Source of the DNA: an uncultured Acetatifactor sp.
Lineage (GTDB): Bacteria > Bacillota > Clostridia > Lachnospirales > Lachnospiraceae
Length of the DNA stretch: 39,558 bases
Direction of reading: 5' to 3'
Assembly (NCBI GenBank): GCA_964617975.1
Contig: CAZUAP010000001.1
Coordinates: 1 to 39,558 of the forward strand
This document shows positions 18,588 to 37,389 of this stretch, in pieces (position 1 is the stretch's first letter; each line of letters starts with the position of its first letter). The translations under genes were made by a program, and so were the position numbers. The notes beneath the pieces were generated by a model. The model was not told the origin of the DNA. It searched no databases and saw only the letters and a list, made by a program, of their open reading frames with translations.

Positions 18588-18758
18588 TCAGTGTCTATTG
18601 GCATTAATCGCTTTCAATACACGGATTAGTTGCCTAATCCCATCTTTATATTGAGCATCCTTTACTTCTTCTGGAAGCTCCGGAAACTTTGTTCCACATA
18701 TATAACAAAAAACCGTATCGTCTGGACTTAGCGTGCCACATTCTCTGCATTGTTTCAT
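18588..18758 (-). CDS. Short zinc-ribbon protein (third paralog, possibly truncated)
   Basis: MKQCRECGTLSPDDTVFCYICGTKF is identical to the N-terminus of 18774-19280. Confidence 0.7.
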   Translation of the reverse strand: MKQCRECGTLSPDDTVFCYICGTKFPELPEEVKDAQYKDGIRQLIRVLKAINANRH

Positions 18759-18773
18759 TTCCTCTCCCTCCAA

Positions 18774-19280
18774 CTAGAACAATCCACAAAAACTGTATCT
18801 TAAATTGCTTGCACTATAGCCATTTATATGTGAAGTCATATCTATTTCAATGGCTTCCTTAAAAATTCTACCTGAGTAGCTTACCTGCCCGCTTGAGCTT
18901 GTTATTACAAAACTGACAGCACCATTTTCAATAGTATAAAACCCAAATGACTCATATTCGTGATTTAGCCATTGACCTACTTGACTTGGAGTGCCGGTTG
19001 AGCCCACCTCAACTACTTTCCCGTCAGGGAAAAATCTAAGATACGATGAGTAATCAGGATATCTGTATTGATAAACACCATCGAACAGAATTATTCCTTC
19101 ACCCGTATCTGACTCAGACGTCGCTGGAATGTTCTTGCCTGACTCTTGATCCTCAGTTAGCGATTCAACACTCGCATAATCTGACAAGTTTTCCTCAAAA
19201 TCGTTAAACTTTGTGCCGCAAATATAGCAAAAAACGGTATCATCAGGGCTTAATGTTCCACATTCTCTGCATTGTTTCAT
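18774..19280 (-). CDS. Zinc-ribbon protein with beta-rich C-terminal domain
   Basis: CxxC...CxxC N-terminus, acidic linker, FDGVYQY...YLRFFPDGKV domain. Confidence 0.8.
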   Translation of the reverse strand: MKQCRECGTLSPDDTVFCYICGTKFNDFEENLSDYASVESLTEDQESGKNIPATSESDTGEGIILFDGVYQYRYPDYSSYLRFFPDGKVVEVGSTGTPSQVGQWLNHEYESFGFYTIENGAVSFVITSSSGQVSYSGRIFKEAIEIDMTSHINGYSASNLRYSFCGLF

Positions 19281-19999
19281 TATATTTTCATCCCTTCATC
19301 ATAAACGAATCGACCATCACACATAGGGCAAATCAGCTCGCCCTCTTTAATCTGTCAGTTGGTATACGACAATTCTTCGTGACAGTAAGGACAAGCAATA
19401 TCAATATAATATTCCTCTGTCTCATCGGACTCTGCTTCTTGCGTTTCTAGTTCACCTGCATCTTCTACGGTTACATATTCTCCCTGTTTTCCGCTTGCAA
19501 CGGCTTCTTCTGTTAGCCTTGTGATTTCTTCCTGCTTTGAAATCTCTGCTTGTATGGCTTTCTCTGCGTTGATTACAAATGATTTCTGAATGCCATCTCC
19601 GAATCGTATTATCTTTGCATAGTTTTTGCTGTCCGCAATGGATACCTTACACTGCCTTAATTGTTCTCGTGTGGTGCATCGGAATTCCACAAGAAGTTTT
19701 CCAAGATAGGCATCAGCATTAGTTGGTTCCATATCAAGAATACGTTCACAGTATTCATCGGCCCGGTCAAACTCACTATCCTCCAAAAAAAGTCCAACAC
19801 GCTGTAAGAGCGGCGATACCTCTGGGTGAATCGCGCTGACTATCTTTTGTCCGTCACTAGAGTTATTCGCATTATCATTCTCAAAGTTATCGCTTTCAGC
19901 AGATGATATATCTATTGCATCAGAAAACCTTTTCCCGCAGACGGCGCAAAACATCGTATCATCGGGACTAAATGTTCCGCACTCTAAACACTGTTTCAT
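19280..19999 (-). pseudogene. Zinc-ribbon/TPR-like protein with an in-frame TGA at 19355-19357 inside a C-terminal zinc ribbon
   Basis: The frame continues CPYCHEELSYTN*QIKEGELICPMCDGRFVYDEGMKI to a TAA that overlaps the next ATG (TAATG). Confidence 0.75.
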
Positions 20000-20017
20000 A
20001 CTGTGTGCCTCCACTGT

Positions 20018-20389
20018 TTATATTTTCAGTCTTGTCACCTCGGCACCAAATGGTGTCAATGCAAGACGTGCTATCTTGAAGTATTGTTTTCCAAACGGAA
20101 TTCCCACGATTGTAATGCAGAAGATGATTCCGATAACTGTAGCCTCAACCGCTAATTCCCAACCAGTTGTCGCAATCCACACCATATTAAGGAGGAAGCT
20201 ACCTACACCGCCGCTAAATACCACGGTCTTTCCAAAAGGGCAGAAGCACAACCATGAAATCTTGAAGCATTGCTTACTGATCGGAATACCAATTACTGTG
20301 ATAGCCCACAAAACACCGGCGATTCCCCAAAGAATACCCGTTATAGCTCCTCCGAAGACAAACCAAGCGAGATTTCCTAGCATCCTCAT
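20018..20389 (-). CDS. YccF-domain inner membrane protein
   Basis: Two repeats: LGNLAWFVFGG...TVIGIPISKQCFK...PFG and LLNMVWIATTGW...TIVGIPFGKQYFK...PFG. TGATG overlap with the AAA gene. Confidence 0.9.
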   Translation of the reverse strand: MRMLGNLAWFVFGGAITGILWGIAGVLWAITVIGIPISKQCFKISWLCFCPFGKTVVFSGGVGSFLLNMVWIATTGWELAVEATVIGIIFCITIVGIPFGKQYFKIARLALTPFGAEVTRLKI

Positions 20390-22224
20390 CAAGTGCCACA
20401 CGCCCTTGTCAAAGAATATTTGAACAATTCTTCGTTTTCTGACGGTTTATCTTCGATTACAACAGAATCTCCAGAAGACCATTCCTCCTTGATTAAGACC
20501 TTTGCAAGTGGATTTACGAGGCAGGTTTCAACCATATTGCCGATACCGCGTCCACCGTTTGACAAATCTCCCTGCGCTTTATTGAGAAGGTATTCCTTAA
20601 ACAGAGCAGATACTTCAAGTTTAATGCCCTTTTCATGTTCCAAGTTGTCTGCAATGGCGCTAAGTTTAAGGTTAAGGATTTCCTCCACTGCTTTCTCTCT
20701 AATGAAATCAAATACTATAAAATTGTCGCCTATACGATTAAGCAGTTCCGGGCGCTGGATAGTGTACTTAAAGTAATCTTTAATAGTAGCAAGCAATTCT
20801 TTTTGGATAGTATCATAATCCATGTTTGGCGTTATGGTCTGATAGCGCTTTCCCGTTTCCGCTTCCTGCCCAACAACTCCTAGATTGCTGGTGAAAATAA
20901 TCAGCGCTTCAGAGAAATACATAGTTTCTCCGGCTGAATCAGTAATTCGACCATCTTCAAGTATCTGAAGGAATTTATCTAGGATTGACGGGTGTGCCTT
21001 ATCAATTTCGTCAAACAGCAATACGCAAAACGGTTTTGACTTGATTGCATTCGTCAACTGCCCACCATCGCTGTAGCCGATATATCCAGGAGGCGCTCCT
21101 AGCAACTTCTGATCAGAATGCGGTTGCTGATATTCACTCATATCAAATCGAGTTACAAAACTCTCATCACCGAAAATAAATTCAGCGATTGTTTTTGCCA
21201 ACTCAGTTTTTCCCGTGCCGGTGGGACCAGCAAAAAATAAAACACCTTTAGGTCGGCTACTTGAACCGCCTTGTATTCCTGACATTCCCAAGCAAGCACG
21301 ACTCAGTACGCTGGCCGCTTTTTTTATTGCAGCTTCTTGACCTTTAACTCTTTTCGCCAGGAACTCTTCAGCATGTTTGACTTTTTCAGAATCCAGCTTG
21401 TCCCATTGACTTTCCGTTTCGCCATAGCGGAACATCTTAACTGCCTCACGGATTTGATATACCGTATATTTCTTTTGCTGGCATAATGAGAAAATACCGA
21501 ACAATTCAACAAGTGTCATACCATCGGTAAGAGCTACAAACTCATCTTGCACTTTTTTCCTTTCTGTCGGTGCTAAATCCTTAGCCCCAGCTACTGTGTC
21601 GATTCTCGCATCTATCACCGCAGCTCTGACCTCTTTCTCCGGGCGGGAAATAGTTAGGGTTCTAACATAGGGATTGTTGAGGTAAAACCATGTCGGTATA
21701 TCATTGACCTTTTCGACAATCAAAAACAGAAGATTAGTCAAAGGTTGTTTATCACGCATGCTTAATGCCTGTGTCGGCGTTCTCGATGCAAGCATAAGCC
21801 TTGTAAAGTATTCTATTTCTTCATCAGATAAATTGTCTGGAGATGCAGCTATCGTGTTCGCCAGATCCACCACAACGGCAGTAGGGCGGACTGTATTTGA
21901 CATCGTTTTTCTTATAAGTTCTGTAGCCGTGCTTATCGACTTGGAAGACTTCTCGTCCGAGGATACCTCTCTGTAAAAAGTTGAGACCATGTCAAGAGCA
22001 TAGGGATTCGAAAAACCGTCAATTCGATTATAGAAAACAACCGGATCATATCCTTCTTCGGTTAAATACCGCTGCAGGTACAGAGAAAGGGCAACCGGCT
22101 CACAAGTCCCATCATCTTCATATATCCAGGGCTGAAGGTCATGAACATTCCCTTCAACAATGAATGTTGTATTTATATCTTGATAGACGGCAAGATCTTT
22201 TTGCCATTTCTCTGCTTGAATCAT
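20389..22224 (-). CDS. ClpB/Hsp100-like AAA+ ATPase with degenerate first and intact second AAA domain
   Basis: VKGQEAA, RPKGVLFFAGPTGTGKTELAK, RFDMSEY, GAPPGYIGY pore loop, LLFDEIDKAH, EDGRITD, RPELLNR. The N-terminal half has no Walker A. Confidence 0.92.
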   Translation of the reverse strand: MIQAEKWQKDLAVYQDINTTFIVEGNVHDLQPWIYEDDGTCEPVALSLYLQRYLTEEGYDPVVFYNRIDGFSNPYALDMVSTFYREVSSDEKSSKSISTATELIRKTMSNTVRPTAVVVDLANTIAASPDNLSDEEIEYFTRLMLASRTPTQALSMRDKQPLTNLLFLIVEKVNDIPTWFYLNNPYVRTLTISRPEKEVRAAVIDARIDTVAGAKDLAPTERKKVQDEFVALTDGMTLVELFGIFSLCQQKKYTVYQIREAVKMFRYGETESQWDKLDSEKVKHAEEFLAKRVKGQEAAIKKAASVLSRACLGMSGIQGGSSSRPKGVLFFAGPTGTGKTELAKTIAEFIFGDESFVTRFDMSEYQQPHSDQKLLGAPPGYIGYSDGGQLTNAIKSKPFCVLLFDEIDKAHPSILDKFLQILEDGRITDSAGETMYFSEALIIFTSNLGVVGQEAETGKRYQTITPNMDYDTIQKELLATIKDYFKYTIQRPELLNRIGDNFIVFDFIREKAVEEILNLKLSAIADNLEHEKGIKLEVSALFKEYLLNKAQGDLSNGGRGIGNMVETCLVNPLAKVLIKEEWSSGDSVVIEDKPSENEELFKYSLTRACGT

Positions 22225-22745
22225 TAGTCGTTTACCTCCTTAACGGTGAGTACGGCATCAACATCACACAAAGTGATTTTTGACCCATCGGCAACTCTAA
22301 CTGGGGAATTTTTTACAATTCGCTGCCCGTCCACCAGAGTACCGTATGTGCTTATATCTTCTACTAAAACTCCAACATTTCGTCGCGGCGTAACTCGCAA
22401 GTGTTGTCTGCTGACCGATGGGAATTCGGCAAGTTCTTCTGCCCCTATTTCTGTCCTTCCAACTATGCCACCCTCTTCGGGGATCTCTATTTCTTTCCCA
22501 TTATTTAATCTCAAGATGTAGTGTTTCTTGCGAGAACCAGATTCTGTCGAAATTGCTTTCCCCTCATTTTCTGAAGTATCTGAAGCGGCATTGCCTTTCA
22601 TAAGTTCCTCAACACGTGGATCGTCCTCATTATAGGTTAAGAAATCCACCAACTTACGGCCACAAGACGGGCAGTTGTCAGGAAAACTCAATCTCCGCTC
22701 AAAAACTATTTTTTCACCACAAGTACATACTTTACAAAACGCCAT
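22224..22745 (-). CDS. Zinc-ribbon plus FHA domain protein
   Basis: CTCG...CPSC N-terminus. FHA motifs IVGR, VSRQH, DISTYGTLVDG. Confidence 0.88.
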   Translation of the reverse strand: MAFCKVCTCGEKIVFERRLSFPDNCPSCGRKLVDFLTYNEDDPRVEELMKGNAASDTSENEGKAISTESGSRKKHYILRLNNGKEIEIPEEGGIVGRTEIGAEELAEFPSVSRQHLRVTPRRNVGVLVEDISTYGTLVDGQRIVKNSPVRVADGSKITLCDVDAVLTVKEVND

Positions 22746-22748
22746 ATG

Positions 22749-23822
22749 TTAACCCTCCGAGTTTAATGCTCGTTGCTTCTGTGTAGATGTTTTTCTCTGC
22801 CTCTTCCTTGCACTTCTTTCGCTGATGTCTGACTGGACACACATTTCATCAATATGAGCGGGTTCTGCATATACACGTTTCAGAATCACACCCTTTTCAG
22901 CAGCTCGTTCTTCCAAGGTTGTATACATGGAGCAAATACTGTTTGCACTACTTTCTATCTGACGTTGGCGTTCCAGAGACCCACCTTTTGCCTCTCCAAC
23001 AGGTTCAAACATTATTCCGCTGCCGTCATTGCCAATAAACACATCGCATAGTGGATGTCCGTCAACCGCATACATTTGACCAACAGTGTGATCCAGGACT
23101 GCGTCATCCTTTGCGTGGCATCCAAGATCTTCCATTATATCCTCGATGACATCCATCACATATTCATCTTGTCTGCGCTTCTCCAACACTGATGTCATTC
23201 TGGCAACTTCTTTTTCGACCCTATATGGAAGTCTCTCTGTTGGCTTTACTTCGAGCATCTCGCACAATGCGCAATACTCGAAATAAGTAGATTCCATCCT
23301 TTCCTTGTCGGCATCAGTAATTCTTGCAGCTCCCTGCAGATAAGTAGAAACTCGCATTTTAACCGACCTGATTTTGTCCTCGATGTCTGTTGCCGATGCC
23401 TGAATCGTTCTTGCCAGTTCCGCTAATAGACGAGTTCTATCTTTCTCGTCTTTCTCTGATATGATAGGCCGCTCATCCACTTTCTTAACCCAGGAATCAA
23501 GCTCCTGTTCCAACTTCGTAGGTTTCTTATGCGCAGAGAATAATAGCCCTGAAAAATCAAGTTCATCCCGTTTGGCGTCGCTTTGACCTTCTTCTATCTG
23601 AAGCGTAGCACCTGTCACAACAGCACTTTTACTATACCCACCGACAGAATCATCTGCAATAAATACCGTCGTTTCAATATTTGACCCAGCTGTCATTTGA
23701 ACATTGTTCTTATGTTCAATCTGCAGCTGCTCCTTTAATCTTTGAATACTGTCTGCCAACTCCTGCTTCAGCCGGGCTTTCCTCATTGCCTCCAACTGGG
23801 CAGTCGTATAATAACTGCTCAT
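22749..23822 (-). CDS. Hypothetical coiled-coil protein with C-terminal alpha/beta domain
   Basis: Charged helical sequence coupled between the kinase and FHA genes. Alternative TTG start at 23831. Confidence 0.8.
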   Translation of the reverse strand: MSSYYTTAQLEAMRKARLKQELADSIQRLKEQLQIEHKNNVQMTAGSNIETTVFIADDSVGGYSKSAVVTGATLQIEEGQSDAKRDELDFSGLLFSAHKKPTKLEQELDSWVKKVDERPIISEKDEKDRTRLLAELARTIQASATDIEDKIRSVKMRVSTYLQGAARITDADKERMESTYFEYCALCEMLEVKPTERLPYRVEKEVARMTSVLEKRRQDEYVMDVIEDIMEDLGCHAKDDAVLDHTVGQMYAVDGHPLCDVFIGNDGSGIMFEPVGEAKGGSLERQRQIESSANSICSMYTTLEERAAEKGVILKRVYAEPAHIDEMCVQSDISERSARKRQRKTSTQKQRALNSEG

Positions 23823-23823
23823 A

Positions 23824-25410
23824 TTAGACAAACGCCTCCTTCATTCTTCGCATTTCCTTCTCATACCCCAATCTGTTAAGCCACGCTATGAAGCGATCAC
23901 TTTGGAGCAGTTCGTCAATTTCTTTAATAGAACACTTACTTAAAACTGGTATCAACGCATCCATCGTTTCCACAGATACCCCAAATATGTCTATCGCTTT
24001 TTTCCCTTGTAAGGCAAAGCATATTGTGGATATAGACGCCATGTCATTGCTTCCGTTACGTCGAATAAGCTGTTCTAGTCTGTCAACCTGTGCTTGCTCA
24101 TAATCATTATACCTAAGATAAAACACCAACAATCCCGTCGAAAGAAACTTCTTTGCAATCTCATCCTTTCCAGTTGATAACTGGTCGACATATTCAGAAA
24201 GAGAGCCATACTCTTTGCCACAGTAGAATATTTGTTGCGGATCATCTTCTATGTACATTAAAAGTTTGTATACAGCAGCATCTGCATCCTGATATAAGGC
24301 AAGTTCCCTGATTTTTTCAACAAGGCTTTTATCAAACTGCCGCACAAAATCAATCAGTTCACGTCTCTTGACGATACGTGATGCCTGCGTCCAATGGTTC
24401 TTAATTGCCTGTGCAAGTTGATGAAGTGTGGTCACCGATACGGTTTGCCCCTCAAATCTACCAAATATAAGTGGCTTGTTTTGATTCTCCTTTTTTGTGC
24501 GGGAATATATGCTTCGATTCACAGGACGCATATATTCTCCCTCGCACCACCGTTTTACCTGTACATATCCCCAACGCTGATCTTCATCCTCATTAAGGAG
24601 TCCTTTTATCAAAACGCCTAAACGACCGCTTATCTGACTCGGCAGGTCTAATCCGCCCTCCCATGCTTTGGAAATCTCTTCAACAGACATTCCTTCAAAA
24701 ATTGAATGCCCCAGGACTGCCTTACAAAGCACTAAACCAAAAGAGCCGTAGTCATAAGCTGGAGACATGGCTGCACTCCATAAAAGTGCTTTAACACGAG
24801 GTGCATATTCTGGGGTTCCTCTTACCGCATCTACCAACTTGCCGTTTGAATTCGTATATCCACTGATGCCACAATCCCCAATCACAACTCTTTCGCCGTT
24901 GTCGGTGTAAAACAAATTACTGGGTTTAATATCACAGTGAACAATGCCGTTTCTATGTAGTTCATGCAAACCTTCATTTATTGAAGGAACCAATATGTTT
25001 TGAATATGTGCACTAGAAAGAGCACCTACATCTTCCAGGGTTCCTTCTGAATAGTATTCATATATTTCATAGTAGTACCCGCCATGCTCGCCGCACTCAA
25101 CAACGTGCGCAATATTGGGATGTCGCACACTCGTCAGAAAGCTTTGCATCTGATTGGACGGATGCCAGCCATTGTGGTAAATTTTGACTACATATGATTT
25201 ACCCCATTTTTTTGCCAAATAGACATTAGATTGCTTCCCTTGCTTATTCATAAGGGAGTTAATCACATAGCTATCAGCAACTGATTCACCAGCTAATAAG
25301 ATAACACTCTGCCCGCTCTGGTTTGAACTTCCCGGCGGAATCGTCTCTCCAACATTTATTATATGGCCGATATGAGATTTCGGCGGTTGTGTTTCGGCAG
25401 CATTTATCAT
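23824..25410 (-). CDS. Hanks-type Ser/Thr protein kinase with C-terminal helical region
   Basis: VVKIY, HPNI, IVHCDIKPSN, DCG in place of DFG, GTPEYAP, YDYGSFG. No transmembrane segment seen. Confidence 0.92.
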   Translation of the reverse strand: MINAAETQPPKSHIGHIINVGETIPPGSSNQSGQSVILLAGESVADSYVINSLMNKQGKQSNVYLAKKWGKSYVVKIYHNGWHPSNQMQSFLTSVRHPNIAHVVECGEHGGYYYEIYEYYSEGTLEDVGALSSAHIQNILVPSINEGLHELHRNGIVHCDIKPSNLFYTDNGERVVIGDCGISGYTNSNGKLVDAVRGTPEYAPRVKALLWSAAMSPAYDYGSFGLVLCKAVLGHSIFEGMSVEEISKAWEGGLDLPSQISGRLGVLIKGLLNEDEDQRWGYVQVKRWCEGEYMRPVNRSIYSRTKKENQNKPLIFGRFEGQTVSVTTLHQLAQAIKNHWTQASRIVKRRELIDFVRQFDKSLVEKIRELALYQDADAAVYKLLMYIEDDPQQIFYCGKEYGSLSEYVDQLSTGKDEIAKKFLSTGLLVFYLRYNDYEQAQVDRLEQLIRRNGSNDMASISTICFALQGKKAIDIFGVSVETMDALIPVLSKCSIKEIDELLQSDRFIAWLNRLGYEKEMRRMKEAFV

Positions 25411-25988
25411 ATAATTCTCTCTCCTTGAGGAATTCCAATCGTTAAAATCTTATTCCCATACATAACGTTTTGTAGCGTTCTCTCCGAGATTTCGATTCCT
25501 TGATATCTATCGTGATATTTAAAAATCAAGCACCTTTGATTTGATGAACCACGTAAACCCTTATTATCGTTTAACTCCTTAATATATGGACCGTCAATCA
25601 GAGCGGCACACGCATTGAGGACGGAATCAATAGCTTCATTTTTCTGTAACCTCAGTTCCTCTATTCTGTATCCTGTAAAGATGAGTATATCATCGCAAAT
25701 ACTCACAAGAGACTGTACCATTTCGTTCAAAGCTTCCGGATTGAGGAATGGCTCTCCACCTGAAATGGTGAATCCATCAATTGGAGTTCGTATACGGCGG
25801 ATCATCAACATAAGTTCGTTAACGGTCACTTCTTTCGAATCGTCATATTCTTGAAGTTCCGGACTTATACACCCTTCACAGCCACGGTTACATCCATTCA
25901 TCCATATTCCGACCCTGTTGCCGGGCCCCAGAGCCTTAACTGGGTAATACATTCTTGCTAGACTGATTTTTGCTTCTTCCATTGTCAT
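25407..25988 (-). CDS. Radical SAM protein of the NrdG-like (glycyl-radical activating enzyme) type
   Basis: LGPGNR...GCNRGCEGC (CxxxCxxC), TISGGEPF, IFTGY, LIDGPY, RGSSNQR. ATGA overlaps at both ends. Confidence 0.9.
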   Translation of the reverse strand: MTMEEAKISLARMYYPVKALGPGNRVGIWMNGCNRGCEGCISPELQEYDDSKEVTVNELMLMIRRIRTPIDGFTISGGEPFLNPEALNEMVQSLVSICDDILIFTGYRIEELRLQKNEAIDSVLNACAALIDGPYIKELNDNKGLRGSSNQRCLIFKYHDRYQGIEISERTLQNVMYGNKILTIGIPQGERII

Positions 25989-27034: not shown

Positions 27035-27044
27035 TTCATTCGCC

Positions 27045-27497
27045 TCACTTGTCTATGTCTTGTAACACATTCGCCAATGCAATATAGCGTGGATCGTTAG
27101 GCGAATAACTGAGCGCCACACTAATATGTCTTAATGCATCAAGTCTTTGTGTCTCGTTCGTTCCGTTTCTCAATGCTAATAGTGCCATCACATATTCTTT
27201 CTCCGCTGAACTTGGGAGATTATTAATTTTGTGGGCATACTTGAATCCTGTGTTTTCAGATGCAGCGAATCCTTCAAGCGTAAGCCCATATATTGCTTCC
27301 GAGACAATCTGCATCTCTGTCTCCTCATAAGCTGCATCTGCTTGTACCGGAACATAATTCTTCGGAATATCAATCTTCTTTGATCTTTCTCGAAGGACAT
27401 CTTTTGCTGTATCAAGTTTTTCAAACTGAGTAGCCAGGTCATAGCACTCTTTCAGTTGAAAAGCCTCAATGCTATCCCAAGCATTAACATTTGACAT
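27045..27497 (-). CDS. TPR-like helical protein
   Basis: EYVMALLAL...ALRHISVALSYSPNDPRYIALA resembles a TPR. Confidence 0.65.
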   Translation of the reverse strand: MSNVNAWDSIEAFQLKECYDLATQFEKLDTAKDVLRERSKKIDIPKNYVPVQADAAYEETEMQIVSEAIYGLTLEGFAASENTGFKYAHKINNLPSSAEKEYVMALLALRNGTNETQRLDALRHISVALSYSPNDPRYIALANVLQDIDK

Positions 27498-27518
27498 ACT
27501 TATCACCTATTACATCGT

Positions 27519-27553: not shown

Positions 27554-27588
27554 CATCATGTCTCTTTCCGATAGTCACTTCAACAAAA

Positions 27589-27924: not shown

Positions 27925-27926
27925 AA

Positions 27927-30900: not shown

Positions 30901-31484
30901 CGTGCCGCACCTATGGCACCATCAGCACCGCTTTTTGGCATGTTGTTGATGAGGTTATTACAAGCATTAACAACATTATTAACTGTGTTTCTTCTAGCCT
31001 CAGTATTCTTAATGTTGTTTTCGCATTCGCTCGTGTATTTCTGCCTTTCATCCTCGCACTGTTTCCTTGCGCTTGATGTTACAGAGTCGTAAATCTGCTG
31101 GCTACTGGTCTTTGCGTCCTCCCACTCTTTTCGAGCCCCTGTTAATTCCCCGCGAAAGGCATCAGTGTGGCTGCGCAAGGCAAACATAGCAGCCATAGCC
31201 TGCCCATGTCCGGCAGGAATGTTTTTCCAGTTGTTCCAAGGTTTCGCCACATCGTCTGCACTAACCTCCGGCTGTTTTGAAACGGATACGAAATCAAGCA
31301 AAATCCCTTGATCATCATTTTGCTTGACAACAACATCAACGATTGCACCCTGATCAACCGCTGCTTGTTCAGCTCCGTTCAAAACCCTGCCGATTACACC
31401 TTGCTCCAATTCAACAATCAGATTGCCTTGGTAGATGTTGATGATACGTCCGGAGCATTTTTTTCCTACACTGTAATCTCCCAT
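27927..31484 (-). CDS. FtsK/SpoIIIE (EssC/EccC-like) ATPase with N-terminal S1-like domain and coiled coil
   Basis: HALIAGQTGAGKS, YLLDFKEGVEF, IFDEVQELF, QGRAMGIHVILACQ. Degenerate flanking domains (MIDPLELG...SLGVCVL; NGPKYGVNSIVW). No TM helix seen. Confidence 0.9.
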   Translation of the reverse strand: MGDYSVGKKCSGRIINIYQGNLIVELEQGVIGRVLNGAEQAAVDQGAIVDVVVKQNDDQGILLDFVSVSKQPEVSADDVAKPWNNWKNIPAGHGQAMAAMFALRSHTDAFRGELTGARKEWEDAKTSSQQIYDSVTSSARKQCEDERQKYTSECENNIKNTEARRNTVNNVVNACNNLINNMPKSGADGAIGAARGGMSSVESKQREVTAAISSKVQAYRTLCNCQIAESERTRNDKLDKARTEQIDRDTQAERRFEAKHKNICDARRTDISEGFNKTTVHAYQQEIKSSRFNAVNYECPSEVPDYVMLGDIGLIIPNKSQDDMAVVQAVELQTSDVGIKQSGEYVVTIPYSQRLSDGISLLMRYSPAERNYVQGLIQPLLMKLFMSFPAGKLEATMIDPLELGASFPDIPKLAEGPNSARIIDTKIWSKEKDIENAIATLRQRLENMTQAYGGDQISRLKKEVIRALAITDFPVGFNDTALKDLHAIVRNSASLGVCVLICANDEELEKLKQRNGTLVAEIAQSLVETKASGKRLMLVGSDKDRLFLQLDDMQDVIERKNKIIPLISSVIEHMQLKVEHFDSMYREDIYDSNNWFTGNHEEIAIPIGIKGANTIVKMVLGRGGGSTEHHALIAGQTGAGKSTLLHTLIMSTLISYSPDEVQMYLLDFKEGVEFSAYTRYRLPSLRVVAINSEREFGLNVLKELCTELETRTKHFTRYGVSDINGYVKLSDVPKVPKLLLIFDEVQELFRSKGESDSISSECLSCLNKLVMQGRAMGIHVILACQDFHNCAGLEAYFSQMAIRIAVKGSEDGAASILNADNAGIRTLQNQPAGAAIYNGGGGVESANNFFQVSYINEDERLDLLTRLDAYFTDPDVAPLYEDQQTRVLLTNAEDNIHNCFNKLILEGSDSVEPLGTSKDGYGLLLGQGFGKKSIFMPELRTKDRDNLLVVSKDEKMALSLFELSAMSVLYEELHTNADKANALVYIVDLFADELADGECDFDFLESQFPQQVKVAKVGDAEELISSLYETVLGRSEGTLPASERIFLMFFGINRARRLRTGRIYEEDRGGELSPIEMLQKIIANGPKYGVNSIVWGESIRSIELMLGDRYDSMFDKRIAYGLDEESMDILVAESEAKALRGKTAVYMDIGRDVKNTHFRPYDVPAKVWVERYAETYDEVINEGGR

Positions 31485-31548
31485 TTGCTCTATTGCACCT
31501 CCTGTAAATAATGACCTTGATAAGTTTTGTTGACATTACGCTTCTTTT

Positions 31549-31767
31549 TCATCCGCTTTCATCTATCTGCTGCATGGCTTCCTCCGGTGTTGACATCCTG
31601 ATATTACCCTCGTTGTCCTCTAAAATAAGAAGAGGCAATCCAACAAAAGACATTTCCCCGTCAGCGAATATAGGTTCGTAGCATTTAAAGCCACGCCACT
31701 CACAAAGGTACTCCGCCGTTTCATAGCCTTGGCTCTTTGCAAATTTATCTATTGATGCTTGTACCAT
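31549..31767 (-). CDS. Candidate cognate immunity protein
   Basis: 72-aa acidic ORF overlapping the toxin 3' end. RBS AAGGAG. Confidence 0.65.
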   Translation of the reverse strand: MVQASIDKFAKSQGYETAEYLCEWRGFKCYEPIFADGEMSFVGLPLLILEDNEGNIRMSTPEEAMQQIDESG

Positions 31768-33595
31768 TGTCTACTCCTTTCATAATGTGATTTACCACGC
31801 TAAAATCAAAATCCATATTGTCTATGCGTAACAACTGGGGGACACAAGGAGTCGTTCCGCCGAACAGTGAAGTGTCTTCATACTTGACTCTGGACAAATA
31901 ATCCAGGACAGCAAAATCTCCAATCCATTCACTTTTTTCTCCTGGTCCTCGTTGGTTATCCTTGATTCTTAGGAGTCCGTTTGGTGCCCTGTCAATATTT
32001 ACTATATGACCACTATGTCCACGCCCTTTCCACGCAAACTGGATAGTGTATCGATTTCCAGGCTTTACAACTTCATTTACAAAATCCAAGTAGTCTTCTG
32101 GTGTCCGTCGGTTGTTATCGTAAATATAGTCGGGATGTTTTCCCGTTTTAGGATCAATCCACGCCATTCTGGGATCGTGGGATAGTCGTTCGAGTGCCGA
32201 TCCTTTAGTACATGGCAACACCTGGACATTGTATCCTCTTTCACGAGCCTCGAAAGTAACTACACAAGATTGACAGTTGATCGAATAGCTATAATCCTTT
32301 CCATAGTTGGGATTTACATGGCCAGAATCAGCCTGTTCAAATGTCATGTTTTCACCAGGGGATACATTTGCTATTGGCGGGCGACGATTATTAATTTTTT
32401 CAATTAACTCATCATAATTTGGATCAGTATACAATCCGTTTGGCTGCCCCTGTATATCCTTCTCCAATTCTGCTGAGTAGTGTTTTCGTAATTCACTTAT
32501 CGTTGCATCTAGTGCTGAAATTGAAACCACACCACGATCCAACAAATTATCTCTGTATACTTCAAGAATGTTATTGATGTATCGTTCACCCATCTGTCGC
32601 TTTTCTACAGGCGAAAGTTTTAGGACTTTGACATGCTCTTTTATTGCCTCTGCCTCTACTTGATTAGAGTAATTCTGTGCAACGGCCATCAGCTGGCTTC
32701 TTAACATGTTTAGTTCTGAAATCTTTTGCTCAGCAGACAAGACACTAGATTCCACTATTCGATTCACCAAGGTATCATATGCTTCCTGTAATGTTTCGCT
32801 TTTAGGAAACCCAATGCCAAGAGCACCTTGTGCTGTAGCGGCGGAAAGCGAATCAATTTGACCAACATTTTGATCACTTGCGGTACGCAACATTAACCCA
32901 GCATCTTCATTTGATATCTCTCCCATAGCTAAGGCAGATGCCAGTCCTCCACCTATCGGTGTTGTTATTCCGCCACCAGATGTCAATCCCTCTGAACCAC
33001 CACCTTGATAGCTTTGTACTTGCCCCGCAGTATCTAGTGTTGCAAATCCGCCACCTCTCCAGCCAGAATCATTTCCGCCCTCACTTCCAACAGCAACATG
33101 GTCGGGAGTGGCATCAATCCCCATGCTGCGAAGAAGTGCCACTCTTGCATCTTCAGCCTCGTTTAAGCGTTGAGCCATACCCTCAGTGAGTGCAGCAGAG
33201 TCTGCACCAAATGCTCCTGCCCTTAGTCTGCGCAACTTCTCCAAGTTGGATCTTTCGACCTGGTTGTGCCTTTCTATCTCTTGAACATGGGCGCTTTTCT
33301 GCTGCCTGACACGATCCGCATCTCCACGAGCGGATGACAACGCTCGTTGACTAGCCGCCAGCTGGTTCTCAGCCATACTCAGCTGTGCTCTGGCCTGCTC
33401 CACATCACCTACTGGGTTTCCTTCTTCGTCAGTCTCGCTGGCGGCAGCAAGCTGCCTTCTAGCTGCGGCAACTCTACTATTGGACGAAGCTACTCTAGCT
33501 TGACAACTTTGTACCTTTTGATCGGCCTCTTTGCCTTGCTCGATGAGTGCCTCGGCTTTTTTTCCAATTTCTTTAAAACTTTTAGCCATTACCAC
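31745..33595 (-). CDS. Polymorphic toxin: helical N-terminus, Gly-rich linker, C-terminal papain-fold (Gln deamidase/Tox-PL-like) domain
   Basis: NPNY...INCQSCVVTFEARERGYNV, WKGRGHSGHIVN and KDNQ give a C441/H530/D546 triad. Alternative ATG start at 33589. Confidence 0.8.
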   Translation of the reverse strand: MVMAKSFKEIGKKAEALIEQGKEADQKVQSCQARVASSNSRVAAARRQLAAASETDEEGNPVGDVEQARAQLSMAENQLAASQRALSSARGDADRVRQQKSAHVQEIERHNQVERSNLEKLRRLRAGAFGADSAALTEGMAQRLNEAEDARVALLRSMGIDATPDHVAVGSEGGNDSGWRGGGFATLDTAGQVQSYQGGGSEGLTSGGGITTPIGGGLASALAMGEISNEDAGLMLRTASDQNVGQIDSLSAATAQGALGIGFPKSETLQEAYDTLVNRIVESSVLSAEQKISELNMLRSQLMAVAQNYSNQVEAEAIKEHVKVLKLSPVEKRQMGERYINNILEVYRDNLLDRGVVSISALDATISELRKHYSAELEKDIQGQPNGLYTDPNYDELIEKINNRRPPIANVSPGENMTFEQADSGHVNPNYGKDYSYSINCQSCVVTFEARERGYNVQVLPCTKGSALERLSHDPRMAWIDPKTGKHPDYIYDNNRRTPEDYLDFVNEVVKPGNRYTIQFAWKGRGHSGHIVNIDRAPNGLLRIKDNQRGPGEKSEWIGDFAVLDYLSRVKYEDTSLFGGTTPCVPQLLRIDNMDFDFSVVNHIMKGVDNGTSINR

Positions 33596-33619
33596 AGTCT
33601 CCTAAACTCAAACGGATTA

Positions 33620-34111
33620 TCAGCCAAATATTCCGCTTAAGTTGCTTTTTAGTGATTCTATCTGTTGTTTTGTCTCATCAACAACGCCTTCCGCATCCGA
33701 AATGATACCTTCATATTCTCCGGCGCTCCCTTCCAATTTGGAACGTCCAGCCTCGGCTGCATCGCGTCCAATGTCAGAAATACCACCGGCTTGTTCTAGT
33801 TTGCTGATACCAGACCTGACATTTTCCAACTCGCCCTCAGTGGTCTCTCTGATTTGCTCTCCTTGTTGCTCTATCTCTTGCCCAGCTGACTCCACCTGCT
33901 CGCTAAACGCACTGTCAAAGCTACTTTGATAGGAACGTCCGGTTTCACTGATTGCCTGAACATCCTCTTCATCTTGCAGTTCAATGCTCTCAAGAACAGC
34001 GTTAATCTGATCGGCCTGTTCTGTCATTTCAGATCCAAGTTCAGTAGTCTCTCGACTATTCTCCTGCATCTCTTTTACACCCTCACGGTTTTTTTCTCTG
34101 AAACTTCCCAT
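33620..34111 (-). CDS. Acidic all-helical protein, candidate toxin partner or secretion substrate
   Basis: 163 aa from MGSFREK (RBS AAAGGAG). E/Q/S-rich amphipathic helices. No WxG motif. Confidence 0.8.
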   Translation of the reverse strand: MGSFREKNREGVKEMQENSRETTELGSEMTEQADQINAVLESIELQDEEDVQAISETGRSYQSSFDSAFSEQVESAGQEIEQQGEQIRETTEGELENVRSGISKLEQAGGISDIGRDAAEAGRSKLEGSAGEYEGIISDAEGVVDETKQQIESLKSNLSGIFG

Positions 34112-34124
34112 AAGTAGTCTCCTT

Positions 34125-37064
34125 TCAGTTTTGTTTAAATGCTTCAACACCATGCATCTTGATATAGGTGCTAAGATCCTCGTTTAACTCTTTGGACAGC
34201 AACGATAGTTTCTCGATCTCTTTATCGATTTTCTTAATATCTTTAGTTGTCCCTACCGCTTGAATCAGACTTTTGTAAAGCTGTAATGTCCGGTCGCACA
34301 TTTGTGTTTGCAACAAAGTTATCTTTATTAGTTCGGATTCTGGAGCACCGAATCGTGTCCATCGTCCATTTTTAAGTCTCTCAAGTGCAAAGATCCAATT
34401 GCCTACGGTGTTTATAATATCTAAAGCTTCGTGAATCTTTGATTTGTCCGCAAGCAGACTTTCCCGACTGGATTGAAGCGCTTCAAGTTGATCGTACCTC
34501 ACCTGTTTATCTTCATCATTAAGCTGCACTTTTCCAAGTTCCACTCGTTCCAAATAAGAGTACAGTTTATTGATTTTTTCAGCTTGTGCTGCAACTGAGT
34601 TCAGCCAGTACTCACATGGCGCGATTCTGCTTTCTATGTCAGACAGCAGATGGAAGTATTTACTTCCTATAATTTTAATACTCTTGAGGTTCTCATCCTG
34701 ATATGTATCTCGATCAGCAAGGGCATACCTTAAATCTGCATCGTTCTTTGAAGATACCATTGCTTCTTTCTCAGCCTGGTTCTCTATCTCGCCCCACCAT
34801 TCTTTGATTCTCATGGTAAAGGGGCGCATCAGTTTCTCATAAAAAATCAGAGCTTCGCCCACGGCAAATGTTGACATCTGTTCAAGCTGCATTGCGCTTG
34901 CTGCCATAGTGCTTCCCAAAAGCGATCTGTCATCTGCAGATGTGATTCTCAAGCCAATCTTAAGACCAGTATTTTTTAATACTTCCTGTGCCATCACCGT
35001 GGGTAGCTGGTCTGCAATTACGATTCCTTCCTTCAAAGCTCGTACTTCGGCAAGCATCTTTACAACAAATGCTGTAGCTGCTTGCTTTGGATCTGCATCT
35101 GCACCTGTTTGTTCTTCTGATTCTGGTCCAATTAAGTTGTGTGCTTCTTCTATAAAAATAACGTGTCTTACATCACCCTCAAAACGGGGATTAACTTTCA
35201 ACGTCTCTCTGATAAGTGAGCAGAGCATCAGCGTCAAGAAATTTGCAGGGCCAGTGCCCATAGATTCAAGCTCAATAACAGCCGGCACTTCAAGCCATTT
35301 CTCAGGTGCGAAAGATGATTCGGGAACATCAAATACATCCCCCATTTCTCTTCGCAGAAGACTACCGATTCTCACCTTAAGCGCCGACTCAAGGTTTCCT
35401 CTGACCTCATCACTATATTGTGTTGATTTCAACTCCTGTTCCAAGCGCCGATAAAGCATAGACATAGTCGGCAAAGCACGTTTTTTGTCACTATCCTCTT
35501 GCTTCTCATCTCCGGTGTAAACATGCTCTGGAATCCAGCCAAGTTCTCTGTAAACAGCTTCGATTGCTGTATCAAGCAAGAATGGCATAGGCGGTTCCAA
35601 AGGAAATGCACCCTCAAACACAGAGCACAATCTCCTAATATGCTCTGCAACAAGAGTCCCCTTTGGCATCTCAAAAGGATTTATATGCAACGGAAAACTC
35701 ATGTCTGCATTCGGAGAGAACAGATACATATCCTTCATACCTGGGTCATTAGCCAGTGCACGATATTCCTGCTTTGCCGGTTCTAAGACAAGGAAGGGAA
35801 TTCCGTGGTCTTTCCAAAGCGATGAAGTGATATGATGCATTGTGTTGGTTTTACCTGATCCAGGTACACCGGAAACAAATGCATGTTTTGGTAAAAGCGA
35901 GAGCGGGAAGAATACATCATACCCATTATTGTCTTTTCCCAAAAACAAAGAGCCATTCTTGTCAACAGCTGCGGGAGCTGTTTCCTTTGCCATCTGAATA
36001 ATCTCGCCATCATACAAGGCTGGCAAACGGAAAAATGGTGCTATCTCCTCTAGCGAAAAGAGAGTTGGTAAATAATTCAGATTAATCGTAGCAGTGTCTT
36101 CTCTGCAAACAATTAATCCTGGACGTCCTTTCTTAACCACCATTCTTTCCCTCATATTTTCCAGACCATCAAACTCACCGTCCAGAAAGCAAACAGGATC
36201 AAAGTTGGAAGAAAAAGTGGCTATGTTATATTTACCTTTCAAAAGGCTCTCAGAGCCTACCGCATCAAGTATTGAAACTGCGTCCTCTTTCCCATTGGCA
36301 AGCACCAGCACATTAGCAATGAAATGAGGAGATGAGTCATACTTCTCAATCAAGTCCTCATAACTATCCAATACATCTTTACCGTCGTAATCTCGCTTTG
36401 AACTACCGCTTCTATCATCCTGTCTTTTCCGCAGAATGCTCATAGGTTTTCTTAACGATTCTCTTAAGGAAACACTCTTTTCAACAGGGTATAGGTCAAC
36501 ACGATACAATGCAGTATGATTTAATGCCTCCATCATCTTGCACATATTATATAGGCGACCATCTTCATTCATTTCCCATTCGCGCAACATATAATAGTCT
36601 TCACCCTCGCCGTTTCCTGCGGGGAGGAGTGTTTCTGTTTTTGTAAGCAATGCGCAAGTGTTGAAAATCGGTGAGTCTATTCCACTTCCAGCTAAAACAT
36701 TATTGATATTACAAGAATCATTTCCTGTCCGGCTGTGCTTAATCTTGGATTCCAACTTATAAAAATCCGATAATGGGGATGCGTTTATCAAAGCCGGTAC
36801 ATTATCCATAGCATCGGCCTTACCCCGTATCATCAAGTATATTTGCAATCTATGTCCAGGAGTGTCCTTTGTTTTGTCTTCCGGAGCAACATACAAGTAA
36901 AACAGATGGTATGACAAACCAGAGACAATACCTTTCCGGTTTAATTGCCTCAAAAAAGCTATATGCTTTTCAATAACTCCATCGACACCGTTTCCTTCAA
37001 GAGAAGCATATTTATTTAGCGTCAAATCAGGAAGCTGCGTCAGTCTATACCATAATTCTGCCAT
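34125..37064 (-). CDS. HerA/DUF87-like (FtsK-HerA superfamily) ATPase
   Basis: HAFVSGVPGSGKT, LVLEPAKQEY, LHINPF, IFIEEAHN, EVRALKEGIVIADQLP. C-terminal coiled coil. Confidence 0.9.
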   Translation of the reverse strand: MAELWYRLTQLPDLTLNKYASLEGNGVDGVIEKHIAFLRQLNRKGIVSGLSYHLFYLYVAPEDKTKDTPGHRLQIYLMIRGKADAMDNVPALINASPLSDFYKLESKIKHSRTGNDSCNINNVLAGSGIDSPIFNTCALLTKTETLLPAGNGEGEDYYMLREWEMNEDGRLYNMCKMMEALNHTALYRVDLYPVEKSVSLRESLRKPMSILRKRQDDRSGSSKRDYDGKDVLDSYEDLIEKYDSSPHFIANVLVLANGKEDAVSILDAVGSESLLKGKYNIATFSSNFDPVCFLDGEFDGLENMRERMVVKKGRPGLIVCREDTATINLNYLPTLFSLEEIAPFFRLPALYDGEIIQMAKETAPAAVDKNGSLFLGKDNNGYDVFFPLSLLPKHAFVSGVPGSGKTNTMHHITSSLWKDHGIPFLVLEPAKQEYRALANDPGMKDMYLFSPNADMSFPLHINPFEMPKGTLVAEHIRRLCSVFEGAFPLEPPMPFLLDTAIEAVYRELGWIPEHVYTGDEKQEDSDKKRALPTMSMLYRRLEQELKSTQYSDEVRGNLESALKVRIGSLLRREMGDVFDVPESSFAPEKWLEVPAVIELESMGTGPANFLTLMLCSLIRETLKVNPRFEGDVRHVIFIEEAHNLIGPESEEQTGADADPKQAATAFVVKMLAEVRALKEGIVIADQLPTVMAQEVLKNTGLKIGLRITSADDRSLLGSTMAASAMQLEQMSTFAVGEALIFYEKLMRPFTMRIKEWWGEIENQAEKEAMVSSKNDADLRYALADRDTYQDENLKSIKIIGSKYFHLLSDIESRIAPCEYWLNSVAAQAEKINKLYSYLERVELGKVQLNDEDKQVRYDQLEALQSSRESLLADKSKIHEALDIINTVGNWIFALERLKNGRWTRFGAPESELIKITLLQTQMCDRTLQLYKSLIQAVGTTKDIKKIDKEIEKLSLLSKELNEDLSTYIKMHGVEAFKQN

Positions 37065-37083
37065 AACTGCACCTCACACGTGT

Positions 37084-37389
37084 CTATTTACCATCTATTT
37101 CATCTGATGATTCCATGATCATCTCTATACCTTCTGACAGCCCATTTATTTCACCTATCATCTTTTTGGTGCTCTCATTGTTTTGAAAGTACGCAATTAA
37201 CGCAAGAAATGTTGTCCAGGACATTTCTCGCTTTCCTGTCTCAATAGAACTATATGTTTGGCGAGATATACCTATTTTTTCAGCAATATCTTCTTGCGAG
37301 ATGCGTGCTTTGGCTCTCAAAACCGGCAACTCTTTTCTAAGCAACTCAACAATCGTATTTCTAAGGTAGATACTGTTCTCGATACTCAA
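37084..37389 (-). CDS. XRE-family HTH transcriptional regulator
   Basis: LRAKARISQEDIAEKIGISRQTYSSIETGKR. TTG start behind GGAGGT; alternative ATG at 37407. Confidence 0.92.
   Translation of the reverse strand: MSIENSIYLRNTIVELLRKELPVLRAKARISQEDIAEKIGISRQTYSSIETGKREMSWTTFLALIAYFQNNESTKKMIGEINGLSEGIEMIMESSDEIDGK

What the first reader, a model, noticed from the sequence alone, without database searches (positions are those of the whole stretch)
18588..37389. Candidate undescribed conflict/secretion system: HerA + toxin/immunity + S1-FtsK + radical SAM + kinase/FHA + ClpB-like AAA+
Seen: 18 co-directional genes with overlapping or very short junctions (ATGA, TAATG, TGATG). They combine two FtsK/HerA-superfamily ATPases, a helical protein, a toxin with a small overlapping gene, two small membrane proteins, a kinase-FHA pair, an NrdG-like radical SAM enzyme, an Hsp100-type ATPase and zinc-ribbon paralogs. 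Established: EssC/EccC ATPases export helical-bundle toxins in type VII secretion, and kinase-FHA plus a Clp ATPase regulate and recycle the type VI machinery. However, no EsaA, EssA, EssB, WXG100 motif or T6SS sheath/tube gene is recognisable here. Inference: a non-canonical toxin-delivery machine or an intracellular anti-phage/abortive system carried as prophage cargo. I do not recognise it as a named system.
Basis: partly seen in the sequence, partly recalled or inferred. Interest (0 to 1): 0.9.

Follow-up and report, generated by a model that had tools for sequence, protein, structure and literature searches.

The report
Switchable toxin system with type-VII-like motor
A mobile 13-gene cluster of mostly gut bacteria joins a toxin-like protein with interchangeable tips and matching predicted immunity genes to a type-VII-secretion-like motor that lacks a membrane anchor and to a kinase/unfoldase/radical-enzyme module, here behind a promoter found in both orientations; it likely delivers toxins to rival cells by an undescribed route, although a role in killing phage-infected cells from within remains a close alternative.

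Summary
Observation confirmed: 18 co-directional genes. The core (HerA–p163–toxin–immunity–FtsK–p111–p153–p349–radical SAM–kinase–p360–FHA–Clp) travels together: both halves occur in 19 of 25 informative related loci, down to about 32% FtsK identity, one of them rearranged. YccF and the zinc ribbons are accessory. The toxin is polymorphic: a constant 160-aa helical N-terminus with 20 tip clusters among 140 proteins, mostly peptidase folds, and immunity genes that follow the tip. The FtsK has the known soluble three-domain EssC-like layout of mobile WXG100/FtsK cassettes. Here WXG100 is missing and swappable S1, L7/L12, GroEL-like or rubredoxin domains cap the ATPase. A perfect sigma-70 promoter lies in a recombinase-containing segment that is ON here and inverted OFF in two relatives. 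The downstream radical-SAM/Clp/kinase module also partners defence-type helicases; this scan noted that module before on other DNA. Ten literature searches found no description of the whole. Best reading: regulated toxin export to neighbours (0.45); close rival: intracellular abortive defence (0.35). New variant of a known kind; interest 0.78.

The parts
37522..37546 (.). Operon-proximal inverted-repeat arm of the invertible segment
   Evidence: 25-nt IR with 38894-38918, 96% complementary; the same arm and outer flank are found in L002 with the inside flipped
37571..37599 (-). Perfect sigma-70 promoter (TTGACA-17-TATAAT) inside the invertible segment, pointing into the operon (ON)
   Evidence: 12/12 match; an identical promoter points away from the operon in L002, and a 12/12 promoter does so in L081
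37698..38828 (+). Tyrosine recombinase inside the invertible segment (inferred invertase)
   Evidence: Phage_integrase E 3.4e-24; relatives of 67% (L002) and 44% (L081) identity lie in the opposite orientation
38892..38918 (+). Distal IR arm; forms a hairpin plus T-run that would stop the promoter in the OFF state
   Evidence: terminator-like site; the same hairpin lies downstream of the promoter in L002
37084..37407 (-). XRE/HTH regulator, first gene (likely start 37389); accessory
   Evidence: HTH_3 E 2.5e-10; detected in L002, L007, L080, L081
34125..37064 (-). HerA/VirB4-like ATPase, 979 aa, no transmembrane helix; core
   Evidence: DUF87; a Walker A motif (GxPGSGKT) and an xEEAH Walker B in 21 of 21 homologues scored, no TM in 21; in 22 of 29 loci, always with p163 and the toxin
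33620..34111 (-). p163, acidic all-helical protein; predicted partner of the toxin N-terminus; core
   Evidence: 22 of 29 loci; no profile match to WXG100; complex with the toxin N-terminus has weak support, score 0.60 vs best control 0.00
31745..33589 (-). Polymorphic toxin: conserved ~160-aa helical N-terminus, Gly-rich linker, papain-fold (Tox-PL1) tip with NCQSC..H..D motifs
31549..31767 (-). 72-aa predicted immunity protein, overlapping the toxin stop
   Evidence: found in 5 of 29 loci, all five with the PL1 tip; other tips have other small genes
27927..31484 (-). EssC/EccC-like FtsK ATPase: variable N-terminal cap (S1-like here), ~200-aa coiled coil, degenerate D1, active D2, degenerate D3; no TM helix; core
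   Evidence: D1 and D3 vs D2 hhalign 93% and 98%; one Walker A; best PDB sequence matches EccC, YukB, EccC5; caps
27589..27924 (-). p111, small helix-TM hairpin-helix membrane protein, the only core membrane component
   Evidence: hydrophobic segment in 24 of 24 homologues; 20 of 29 loci by profile
27045..27506 (-). p153, helical protein of unknown function; core
   Evidence: 21 of 29 loci; longer TM-tailed forms with a DUF5685 gene upstream in distant loci
25985..27034 (-). p349, unknown protein: helical bundle, beta-rich middle, C-terminal CxxC..CxxH Zn motif; core and specific to this system
   Evidence: 25 of 29 loci; confident model, pLDDT 92; no clear fold match
25407..26018 (-). NrdG-like radical SAM enzyme (CxxxCxxC intact); no glycyl-radical partner gene in the cluster
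23824..25410 (-). Soluble Ser/Thr kinase with intact catalytic motifs
   Evidence: Pkinase; VVKIY, HCDIKPSN, GDCG, GTPEY; no TM in 27 of 27
22749..23831 (-). p360, helical protein with a C-terminal alpha/beta domain that weakly resembles KA1 (kinase-associated) folds
   Evidence: homologue in the helicase-linked module of L088, hhalign 96%; KA1 match Z 7.5, rmsd 2.5, 77 aligned, within the range of common folds
22224..22745 (-). Zn-ribbon-FHA protein with intact phosphothreonine-binding motifs
   Evidence: FHA; GR, SRxH, STxGT
20389..22224 (-). Clp/Hsp100-type ATPase with a family-specific degenerate N-terminal region and an intact D2
20018..20401 (-). YccF membrane protein; accessory
   Evidence: 2 of 29 loci
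18588..20014 (-). Three Zn-ribbon paralogs; accessory
   Evidence: ZnR1 in 4 of 29 loci

Best explanation
The cluster is a polymorphic toxin system whose invertible promoter likely switches it ON and OFF, and it likely exports its toxin to neighbouring cells with a type-VII-derived motor by a route that is still undescribed. Shown: gene linkage, tip exchange with tip-matched small genes, the ATPase layout, the variable ATPase caps and two promoter orientations. Inferred steps: (1) ON cells make the toxin together with its immunity protein. (2) The toxin's helical N-terminus pairs with p163, doing the job of the WXG100 or LXG-Lap pair that related FtsK cassettes carry. (3) The EssC-like ATPase and the HerA/VirB4-like ATPase thread this pair out at a site built from p111. 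(4) The kinase-FHA-p360-Clp-radical SAM module, with the housekeeping-like caps on the FtsK (S1, L7/L12, GroEL-like, rubredoxin) as possible decoy sensors, sets the threshold for firing or resets the machine. (5) The mostly peptidase-fold tip poisons non-immune cells.
For: Classic polymorphic architecture: 25 proteins at least 95% identical to the window N-terminus carry 5 different tips; 20 tip clusters in 140 proteins. Tips include PL1, HExxH peptidases, non-specific endonucleases and ADP-ribosyltransferase. Imm72 occurs only with the PL1 tip (5 of 5). L014 and L015 keep a tip-less N-terminal domain beside p163, like a carrier pair. The FtsK profile matches EccC/YukB best among solved structures (E 3e-54 to 6e-41, vs about 1e-22 for DNA-pumping FtsK), and more distant relatives sit beside WXG100 genes. 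p163 plus toxin N-terminus scored 0.60 vs best control 0.00; the runs agree in 96% or more of contacts and partner pLDDT is 88 or more. This is weak support: 18 of 157 solved complexes and both passing mismatches (2 of 215) scored 0.60 or less. A HerA ATPase-domain relative on an E. coli plasmid sits directly before an LHH nuclease-SUKH immunity pair. PMC11090510 (section 10) also proposed secretion for TM-less ATPases of this layout.
Against: No credible envelope channel: no TM helix in the HerA or the kinase, no N-terminal TM anchor in the near-clade FtsKs, and only a 111-aa hairpin. No WXG100 or EssB/YukC match in the 79%-complete own genome. p163 and the toxin N-terminus do not match a WXG100 profile (hhalign below 1%). 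The downstream module elsewhere partners Mokosh-like and Hhe-like helicases, which are intracellular defence types. The FtsK caps are cytoplasmic housekeeping-like domains, which fits sensing of an intracellular invader. About 130 of 140 tips are peptidase folds, whereas over half of MuF toxins are nucleases (PMC5576092, passages). Three loci keep FtsK plus module with no p163 found in the genome.
Confidence: 0.45

Rival explanations
1. An intracellular abortive-infection system. A phage protein that targets a host protein (S1, L7/L12, GroEL) binds the decoy cap on the FtsK or trips the kinase. The Clp and FtsK/HerA motors then strip immunity or p163 from the toxin, and the freed peptidase tip arrests the infected cell. 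Phase variation limits the cost.
For: All large components are soluble. Swappable housekeeping-like caps resemble the S1-like, L12 and decoy domains described in intracellular conflict systems (PMC7159879, passages). The Clp/radical SAM module lies with MkoA-like helicase plus PIN, kinase-helicase, or DUF4011/Hhe-like helicase in 4 of 4 plasmid loci inspected of 11 found. ATPases of this layout occur in TerY-P and CoCoNuT III-A defence loci (PMC11090510 section 10; PMC4978471 passages). In the window the cluster lies next to a two-methylase/HNH restriction-like cassette in prophage cargo.
Against: A constant N-terminal carrier with exchanged C-terminal tips and cognate downstream immunity is the hallmark of toxins aimed at other cells (PMC5576092, PMC3482391 passages). 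The tip-less forms (L014, L015) and the EccC-type motor have no obvious role in suicide. PADLOC gives no system-level match.
Confidence: 0.35
2. The toxin is handed to a mobile-element vehicle (a phage head or conjugation channel), as MuF and polyvalent proteins are, and the ATPases load it.
For: The window tip matches phage MuF/minor head proteins at about 30% identity. Four other tips match head-morphogenesis PHROGs. The HerA resembles VirB4/CedD-type motors. Two of 29 loci are viral contigs and the window is a prophage.
Against: Sharing a tip pool is general among polymorphic toxins (PMC5576092). The toxin N-terminus has no PHROG match. Many loci have housekeeping flanks with no phage or conjugation genes in 10 kb. 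Only 2 viral contigs carried p163.
Confidence: 0.1
3. Two independent cassettes (toxin arm; radical-SAM/Clp/kinase module) merely co-travel on one island.
For: Each half occurs without the other in 3 informative loci. The module is widespread without FtsK: only 1 of 9 other-phylum-sample genomes inspected had this ATPase type beside it. In 74 of 80 metagenome loci seeded with a distant Clp, no radical SAM gene was detected nearby.
Against: Linkage holds across the whole FtsK clade, and the one-half loci are scattered on the tree, as losses would be. It survives rearrangement in G699 and G707. p349 is found only with this FtsK. A distant FtsK plus two WXG100-like genes is independently embedded in the same module in G692.
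Confidence: 0.1

Closest known systems
Mobile WXG100/FtsK cassette ('mobile T7SS'; extension of TerY-P and CoCoNuT type III-A loci; H. pylori HP0062/HP0066)
   Same: Three tandem FtsK domains with only the middle one active, a long N-terminal coiled coil and no TM (PMC3482391 Table 1 note; PMC11090510 section 10; here). Distant relatives found here do carry WXG100 genes.
   Different: No WXG100; p163 and a polymorphic toxin take their place. It adds a HerA ATPase, p111, p153, p349, the radical SAM/kinase/FHA/Clp module, variable N-terminal caps and an invertible promoter. No TerY, vWA or McrBC in the core.
Type VII secretion systems T7SSa-j (Garrett et al. 2024, PMC11217815, parts 2-4 of 7 read)
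   Same: EssC-like ATPase, helical-domain toxins with upstream helical partners and downstream immunity; kinases and FHA proteins are frequent.
   Different: All T7SSc-j have a membrane-bound TsxC with four NTPase domains, almost all have a WXG100, and most have a ubiquitin-like protein; their kinases are membrane-bound. None in the parts read has a radical SAM enzyme, a Clp-D2 ATPase or a HerA.
Polymorphic toxin systems, especially MuF toxins and polyvalent proteins (PMC3482391, PMC5576092, PMC5512222; passages)
   Same: Conserved N-terminus, exchanged tips (PL1, zincin HExxH, ART, nuclease), small downstream genes; some tips are shared with MuF proteins.
   Different: The N-terminal carrier matches no Pfam or PHROG family, and the tips are strongly peptidase-biased.
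Mokosh/Hhe-like helicase loci carrying the same radical SAM-Clp-(kinase-FHA-p360) module
   Same: Homologous Clp (35-43% identity), radical SAM and, in L088, p360, kinase and FHA.
   Different: The partner is an SF1 helicase with a PIN or REase domain, not a toxin/FtsK arm. I found no paper on the module; the scan's own earlier notes describe it.
CoCoNuT III-A 'EccE3-HerA' extension (PMC11090510)
   Same: A VirB4/HerA-like ATPase with an N-terminal extra domain beside a small helical protein.
   Different: Homology of our HerA N-terminus to EccE3 was not tested; no toxin is described there.

Membership tests
Type VII secretion system (T7SSa-j) | EccC/EssC-family ATPase | tested here: met
   Best NCBIfam and PDB matches are EssC/EccC/YukB, though below the equivalog cut-offs
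Type VII secretion system (T7SSa-j) | ATPase membrane-anchored, with four NTPase domains | tested here: not met
   No hydrophobic segment above threshold in the window protein; three domains, one Walker A
Type VII secretion system (T7SSa-j) | WXG100 (EsxA/TsxA) protein | tested here: not met
   No PF06013 hit in the cluster or in the 79%-complete genome; p163, toxin N-terminus and p111 vs a WXG100 profile below 1%. A structural analogy cannot be excluded
Type VII secretion system (T7SSb) | EssB/YukC, EsaA, EssA, EsaB membrane and accessory parts | tested here: inconclusive
   None in the cluster; YukC not found in the incomplete genome; EsaA, EssA and EsaB were not searched genome-wide
Type VII secretion system | ATPase-dependent export of helical substrates | not testable with these tools
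   needs a secretome assay
Mobile WXG100/FtsK cassette | Coiled coil plus D1(inactive)-D2(active)-D3(inactive), no TM | tested here: met
Mobile WXG100/FtsK cassette | Adjacent WXG100 gene(s) | tested here: not met
   absent from the window clade; present beside distant relatives L028, L063, L186
Polymorphic toxin system | Conserved N-terminus with exchanged C-terminal toxin domains | tested here: met
   20 tip clusters in 140 proteins; 5 tips among 25 near-identical N-termini
Polymorphic toxin system | Tip-specific small downstream immunity gene | tested here: met
   Imm72 only with PL1 (5 of 5); L012 and L024 share both tip and small gene. Not universal: L021 has no gene between toxin and FtsK. 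Neutralisation itself is untested
Polymorphic toxin system | Toxicity to non-kin cells | not testable with these tools
   needs a competition assay
Named anti-phage systems in PADLOC 2.0 (Mokosh, MADS, Dodola, HerA-SIR2/DUF4297, PDC-M37) | Complete set of the system's genes | tested here: not met
   only partial single-domain hits spread over different systems; DefenseFinder was not available
T6SS | Sheath, tube, baseplate genes; full-length ClpV | tested here: not met
   no such Pfam or NCBIfam hits; TssH score 206 vs cut-off 885
Recombinase-driven invertible promoter | IR-flanked promoter seen in both orientations | tested here: met
   ON in the window and in contigs of runs X1 and X2; OFF in L002 (same outer flanks) and L081
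Recombinase-driven invertible promoter | Both orientations within one population | tested here: inconclusive
   no strand-switch joint in four contig-only runs

The most novel reading that the evidence does not exclude
A new class of conflict machine that wires an intracellular invader-sensing module (swappable ribosomal-protein and chaperone decoys on the motor, a kinase-FHA threshold, a Clp unfoldase and an orphan radical SAM activase) to a channel-less, two-ATPase type-VII-like exporter with its own family of carrier domain, so that attack on a cell triggers release of polymorphic peptidase toxins. The radical SAM enzyme would modify a protein of the machine.
Probability: 0.25. Interest if true: 0.92.

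Novelty: new variant of a known kind. Interest (0 to 1): 0.78.

Why it matters
The mobile, membrane-less EssC-like ATPases have been noted since 2012 without a tested function. This locus gives them a toxin with a new carrier domain, a natural ON/OFF switch and a cultured host (Dorea sp. YH-dor226, L007, which lacks the switch), so 'export or intracellular defence' becomes directly testable. It also offers a partner context for the widespread orphan NrdG-like/Clp/kinase module. If export is real, gut Clostridia have an unrecognised competition weapon that moves across families and, in two records, across phyla (L008, L020; L020 is a metagenome bin). If it is intracellular, a secretion motor has been turned into a decoy-triggered immune switch.

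Tried and rejected
Named-system matches: none at system level in PADLOC or NCBIfam. Canonical T7SS variants: rejected on the membrane anchor and WXG100. S8-PTS (PMC9424270, abstract only): needs a signal peptide, BetaH domain and S8 peptidase; none here. p111 as a split-off TM segment of the Planctomycete FtsKs (which do have TM helices): hhalign 1%, not supported. p163 and the toxin N-terminus as paralogs or WXG100: hhalign 2.5% or less. p349 fold: Foldseek gave no E at or below 0.001; VIA gave best Z 8.0 on the N-terminal helices only, so the rest is barely tested; Atlas hits were below 0.9. HerA: no PDB sequence match; Atlas look-alikes of a homologue's N-terminus are unnamed or DUF8128-like clusters; plasmid HerA relatives share only the ATPase domain. 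p349 searched in 300 other genomes of the order: 0 hits, so the island is sporadic. RNA runs X15, X17, X19, X20: scattered short low-depth contigs across the cluster, which cannot show transcription or co-transcription. No inversion joint in DNA contigs. The tip of L080 has no phage match. FtsK caps vs the own genome by tblastn: no hit outside the window. The maximum-likelihood tree did not finish; FastTree was used on 48 rows. Anantharaman 2012 was not held and is cited only second-hand. Literature searches without a description of this cluster. The library lacks most subscription journals, and supplements were searched only for PMC11090510, so other supplements may list these loci.

Full report
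Observation. The window (contig C1 of a 79%-complete genome) holds a 55% GC phage replication module at 1-11.8 kb (DNA polymerase A, VapE primase, SNF2 helicase, ssDNA-binding protein). It is followed by 43-44% GC cargo: a restriction-like cassette (two C5 methylases, HNH) and the 18 minus-strand genes of the finding. No NCBIfam equivalog cut-off is reached and PADLOC gives only scattered domain hits.

Co-conservation. A scan of one genome per species with an FtsK alignment kept the best 80 of 221 relatives (78 loci), and viral contigs gave 6. Twenty-nine loci form the near clade (30-100% identity); a FastTree of 48 rows supports it at 100 (L024, split, was left out). Most are Bacillota of several families, plus a Gardnerella isolate and a Bacteroides bin. 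Profile tallies over the 29: HerA, p163 and toxin 22 each; p111 20; p153 21; p349 25; radical SAM, kinase, p360 and FHA 24 each; Clp 23; YccF 2; ZnR1 4. Four loci end too early to inform. Of the other 25, 18 hold both halves in the window's order, and one (G699) holds them rearranged, with HerA-p163-toxin after Clp. Three hold FtsK plus the downstream module with no p163 found in the genome, and three hold the toxin arm with no Clp found; these are draft genomes or bins. A long-branch sister (L072, G707) has FHA-Clp-x-p163-HerA on another contig. The flanks differ from locus to locus, and p349 was found in 0 of 300 other genomes of the order, so the unit is a sporadic mobile island.

Toxin. 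The first ~160 residues are conserved and helical. A search with them gave 176 proteins, of which the best 120 were retrieved. With 19 locus proteins and the window's, 140 proteins fall into 20 tip clusters (many are near-duplicates). An HExxH motif is present in 88; 42 are papain-like (40 in the window's PL1 cluster, one more by Pfam, one by eye); 3 are nucleases; a few are ADP-ribosyltransferase-like. Twenty-five proteins at least 95% identical in the N-terminus carry 5 tips, which indicates recent exchange. The 72-aa downstream gene appears only with the PL1 tip. Some tips are shared with phage MuF/minor head proteins. L014 and L015 encode the N-terminal domain alone. p163 and this domain gave weak support as a pair (0.60 vs 0.00) and do not match WXG100 by profile.

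Motors. The FtsK has a coiled coil, two degenerate domains flanking one active domain, and no TM anchor. That layout is described for 'mobile T7SS' ATPases (PMC3482391, passages) and for CoCoNuT III-A/TerY-P extensions (PMC11090510, section 10 and supplement hits; PMC4978471, passages), always with WXG100. The distant relatives found here (Planctomycetes and others) often have WXG100-like neighbours and two TM helices. I saw no mention in those passages of a variable N-terminal cap. Of 120 close homologues 101 could be parsed: 38 had no cap, 50 the window's S1-like cap, 4 a GroEL-apical-like cap, 3 rubredoxin plus L7/L12, 4 rubredoxin alone and 2 other. That these act as decoys is inference, by analogy with PMC7159879 (passages). 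The HerA has intact Walker motifs and always travels with p163 and the toxin. The only core membrane protein is the 111-aa hairpin p111.

Downstream module. The Clp N-terminal profile hit 10 of 400 other genomes of the phylum (4 from one genus). In all 9 inspected, a radical SAM gene is adjacent, often with kinase, FHA and PP2C; only G692 also has a three-domain FtsK with two WXG100-like genes, and that FtsK lies in the distant clade. In 4 of 4 plasmid loci inspected (of 11) the module accompanies SF1 helicases of MkoA-like or Hhe-like type. Against a strict module, 74 of 80 metagenome loci seeded with a distant Clp showed no radical SAM neighbour; many are short contigs or one rumen lineage. 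Two earlier AI notes of this scan describe the same module on other genomes; I confirmed its spread and make-up in part. p360 ends in a domain with a weak KA1-like match, and p349 folds confidently without a clear match. No glycyl-radical enzyme is in the cluster; the substrate of the radical SAM enzyme is unexplained.

Switch. A 1.35-kb segment between 25-nt inverted repeats contains a tyrosine recombinase and a 12/12 promoter aimed at the operon. In L002, whose core genes are mostly 94-100% identical, the outer flanks are the same and the inside is reversed, so the identical promoter runs into a hairpin plus T-run. L081 (FtsK 43%) has its own 27-nt repeats in the OFF orientation. Contigs of runs X1 and X2 are ON. 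The recombinases of the window and L002 are only 67% identical, and both states were not seen in one sample. Five other loci checked lack such repeats, so the switch is optional.

Mechanism and verdict. The architecture of the toxin and the ancestry of the motor point to export (0.45). The lack of a channel, the cytoplasmic caps and the defence-type partners of the downstream module point to intracellular defence (0.35). Loading onto a mobile vehicle (0.10) and chance co-travel (0.10) are less likely. It is a polymorphic toxin system by the features testable here and works like a stripped type VII system, but it fails T7SS membership on the membrane anchor and WXG100. Ten full-text searches of the open library found its relatives but not this cluster. 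Papers seen: PMC11217815 parts 2-4 of 7; PMC11090510 passages, section 10 and supplement hits; passages of PMC3482391, PMC3113570, PMC7159879, PMC5576092, PMC5512222 and PMC4978471; the abstract of PMC9424270. The labels 'LXG-Lap', 'Mokosh' and 'Hhe' rest on those papers and on PADLOC model names; 'GroEL apical' is my reading of weak Cpn60 hits (E 9e-5 to 8e-3). Novelty: new variant of a known kind. Interest 0.78.

Noticed in passing
L203:6422-14821 (E. coli plasmid NZ_CP035852): Two dynamin-family genes, a TM-tailed protein, a HerA-like ATPase, an LHH nuclease with a helical N-terminus and a SUKH immunity gene in one operon: possibly another HerA-driven toxin system, using dynamins.
   Followed up: partly
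L028:8156-15247: Three WXG100-like genes plus the three-domain FtsK, followed by Prok-JAB and ThiF/E1 genes: a mobile T7SS-like cassette joined to ubiquitin-like conjugation genes. The small proteins look Clostridia-like although the bin is labelled Solirubrobacterales (impression, not tested).
   Followed up: no
L186:7173-19869 and L187 (G692): Kinase, FtsK, two WXG100-like genes, an RNA polymerase alpha-CTD protein, Clp, radical SAM, FHA and PP2C: an independent coupling of the two modules, with another housekeeping-like domain.
   Followed up: partly
window:12132-18375: Prophage cargo: a 633-aa IrrE/CapP-like metallopeptidase-HTH and a 306-aa paralog (phrog_4031), an HNH endonuclease, two C5 methylases and an excisionase-like HTH.
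   Followed up: no
window:9277-10403: The DUF2800 phage gene is split into two overlapping ORFs (9726-10403 and 9277-9729): a frameshift or an assembly error.
   Followed up: no
L017, L025, L027, L032 (between FtsK and p349): Distant members insert a DUF5685 gene before a longer, mostly TM-tailed p153 homologue; L081 has a same-sized gene at that place.
   Followed up: partly
L017:5712-6941: A stand-alone Cpn60-like gene is inserted between p163 and the toxin, echoing the GroEL-like caps on FtsK.
   Followed up: no
L026:11977-17520: FtsK plus the module is followed by an AAA ATPase and a large TPR-vWA protein, reminiscent of MoxR-vWA conflict systems.
   Followed up: no
L099, L114, L117 and many others: A rumen lineage carries this Clp family without a detected radical SAM or kinase gene, next to PGA_cap, VTC and CotH genes.
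   Followed up: no
L024:9986-13695: The FtsK gene is split into two ORFs (703 and 533 aa).
   Followed up: no
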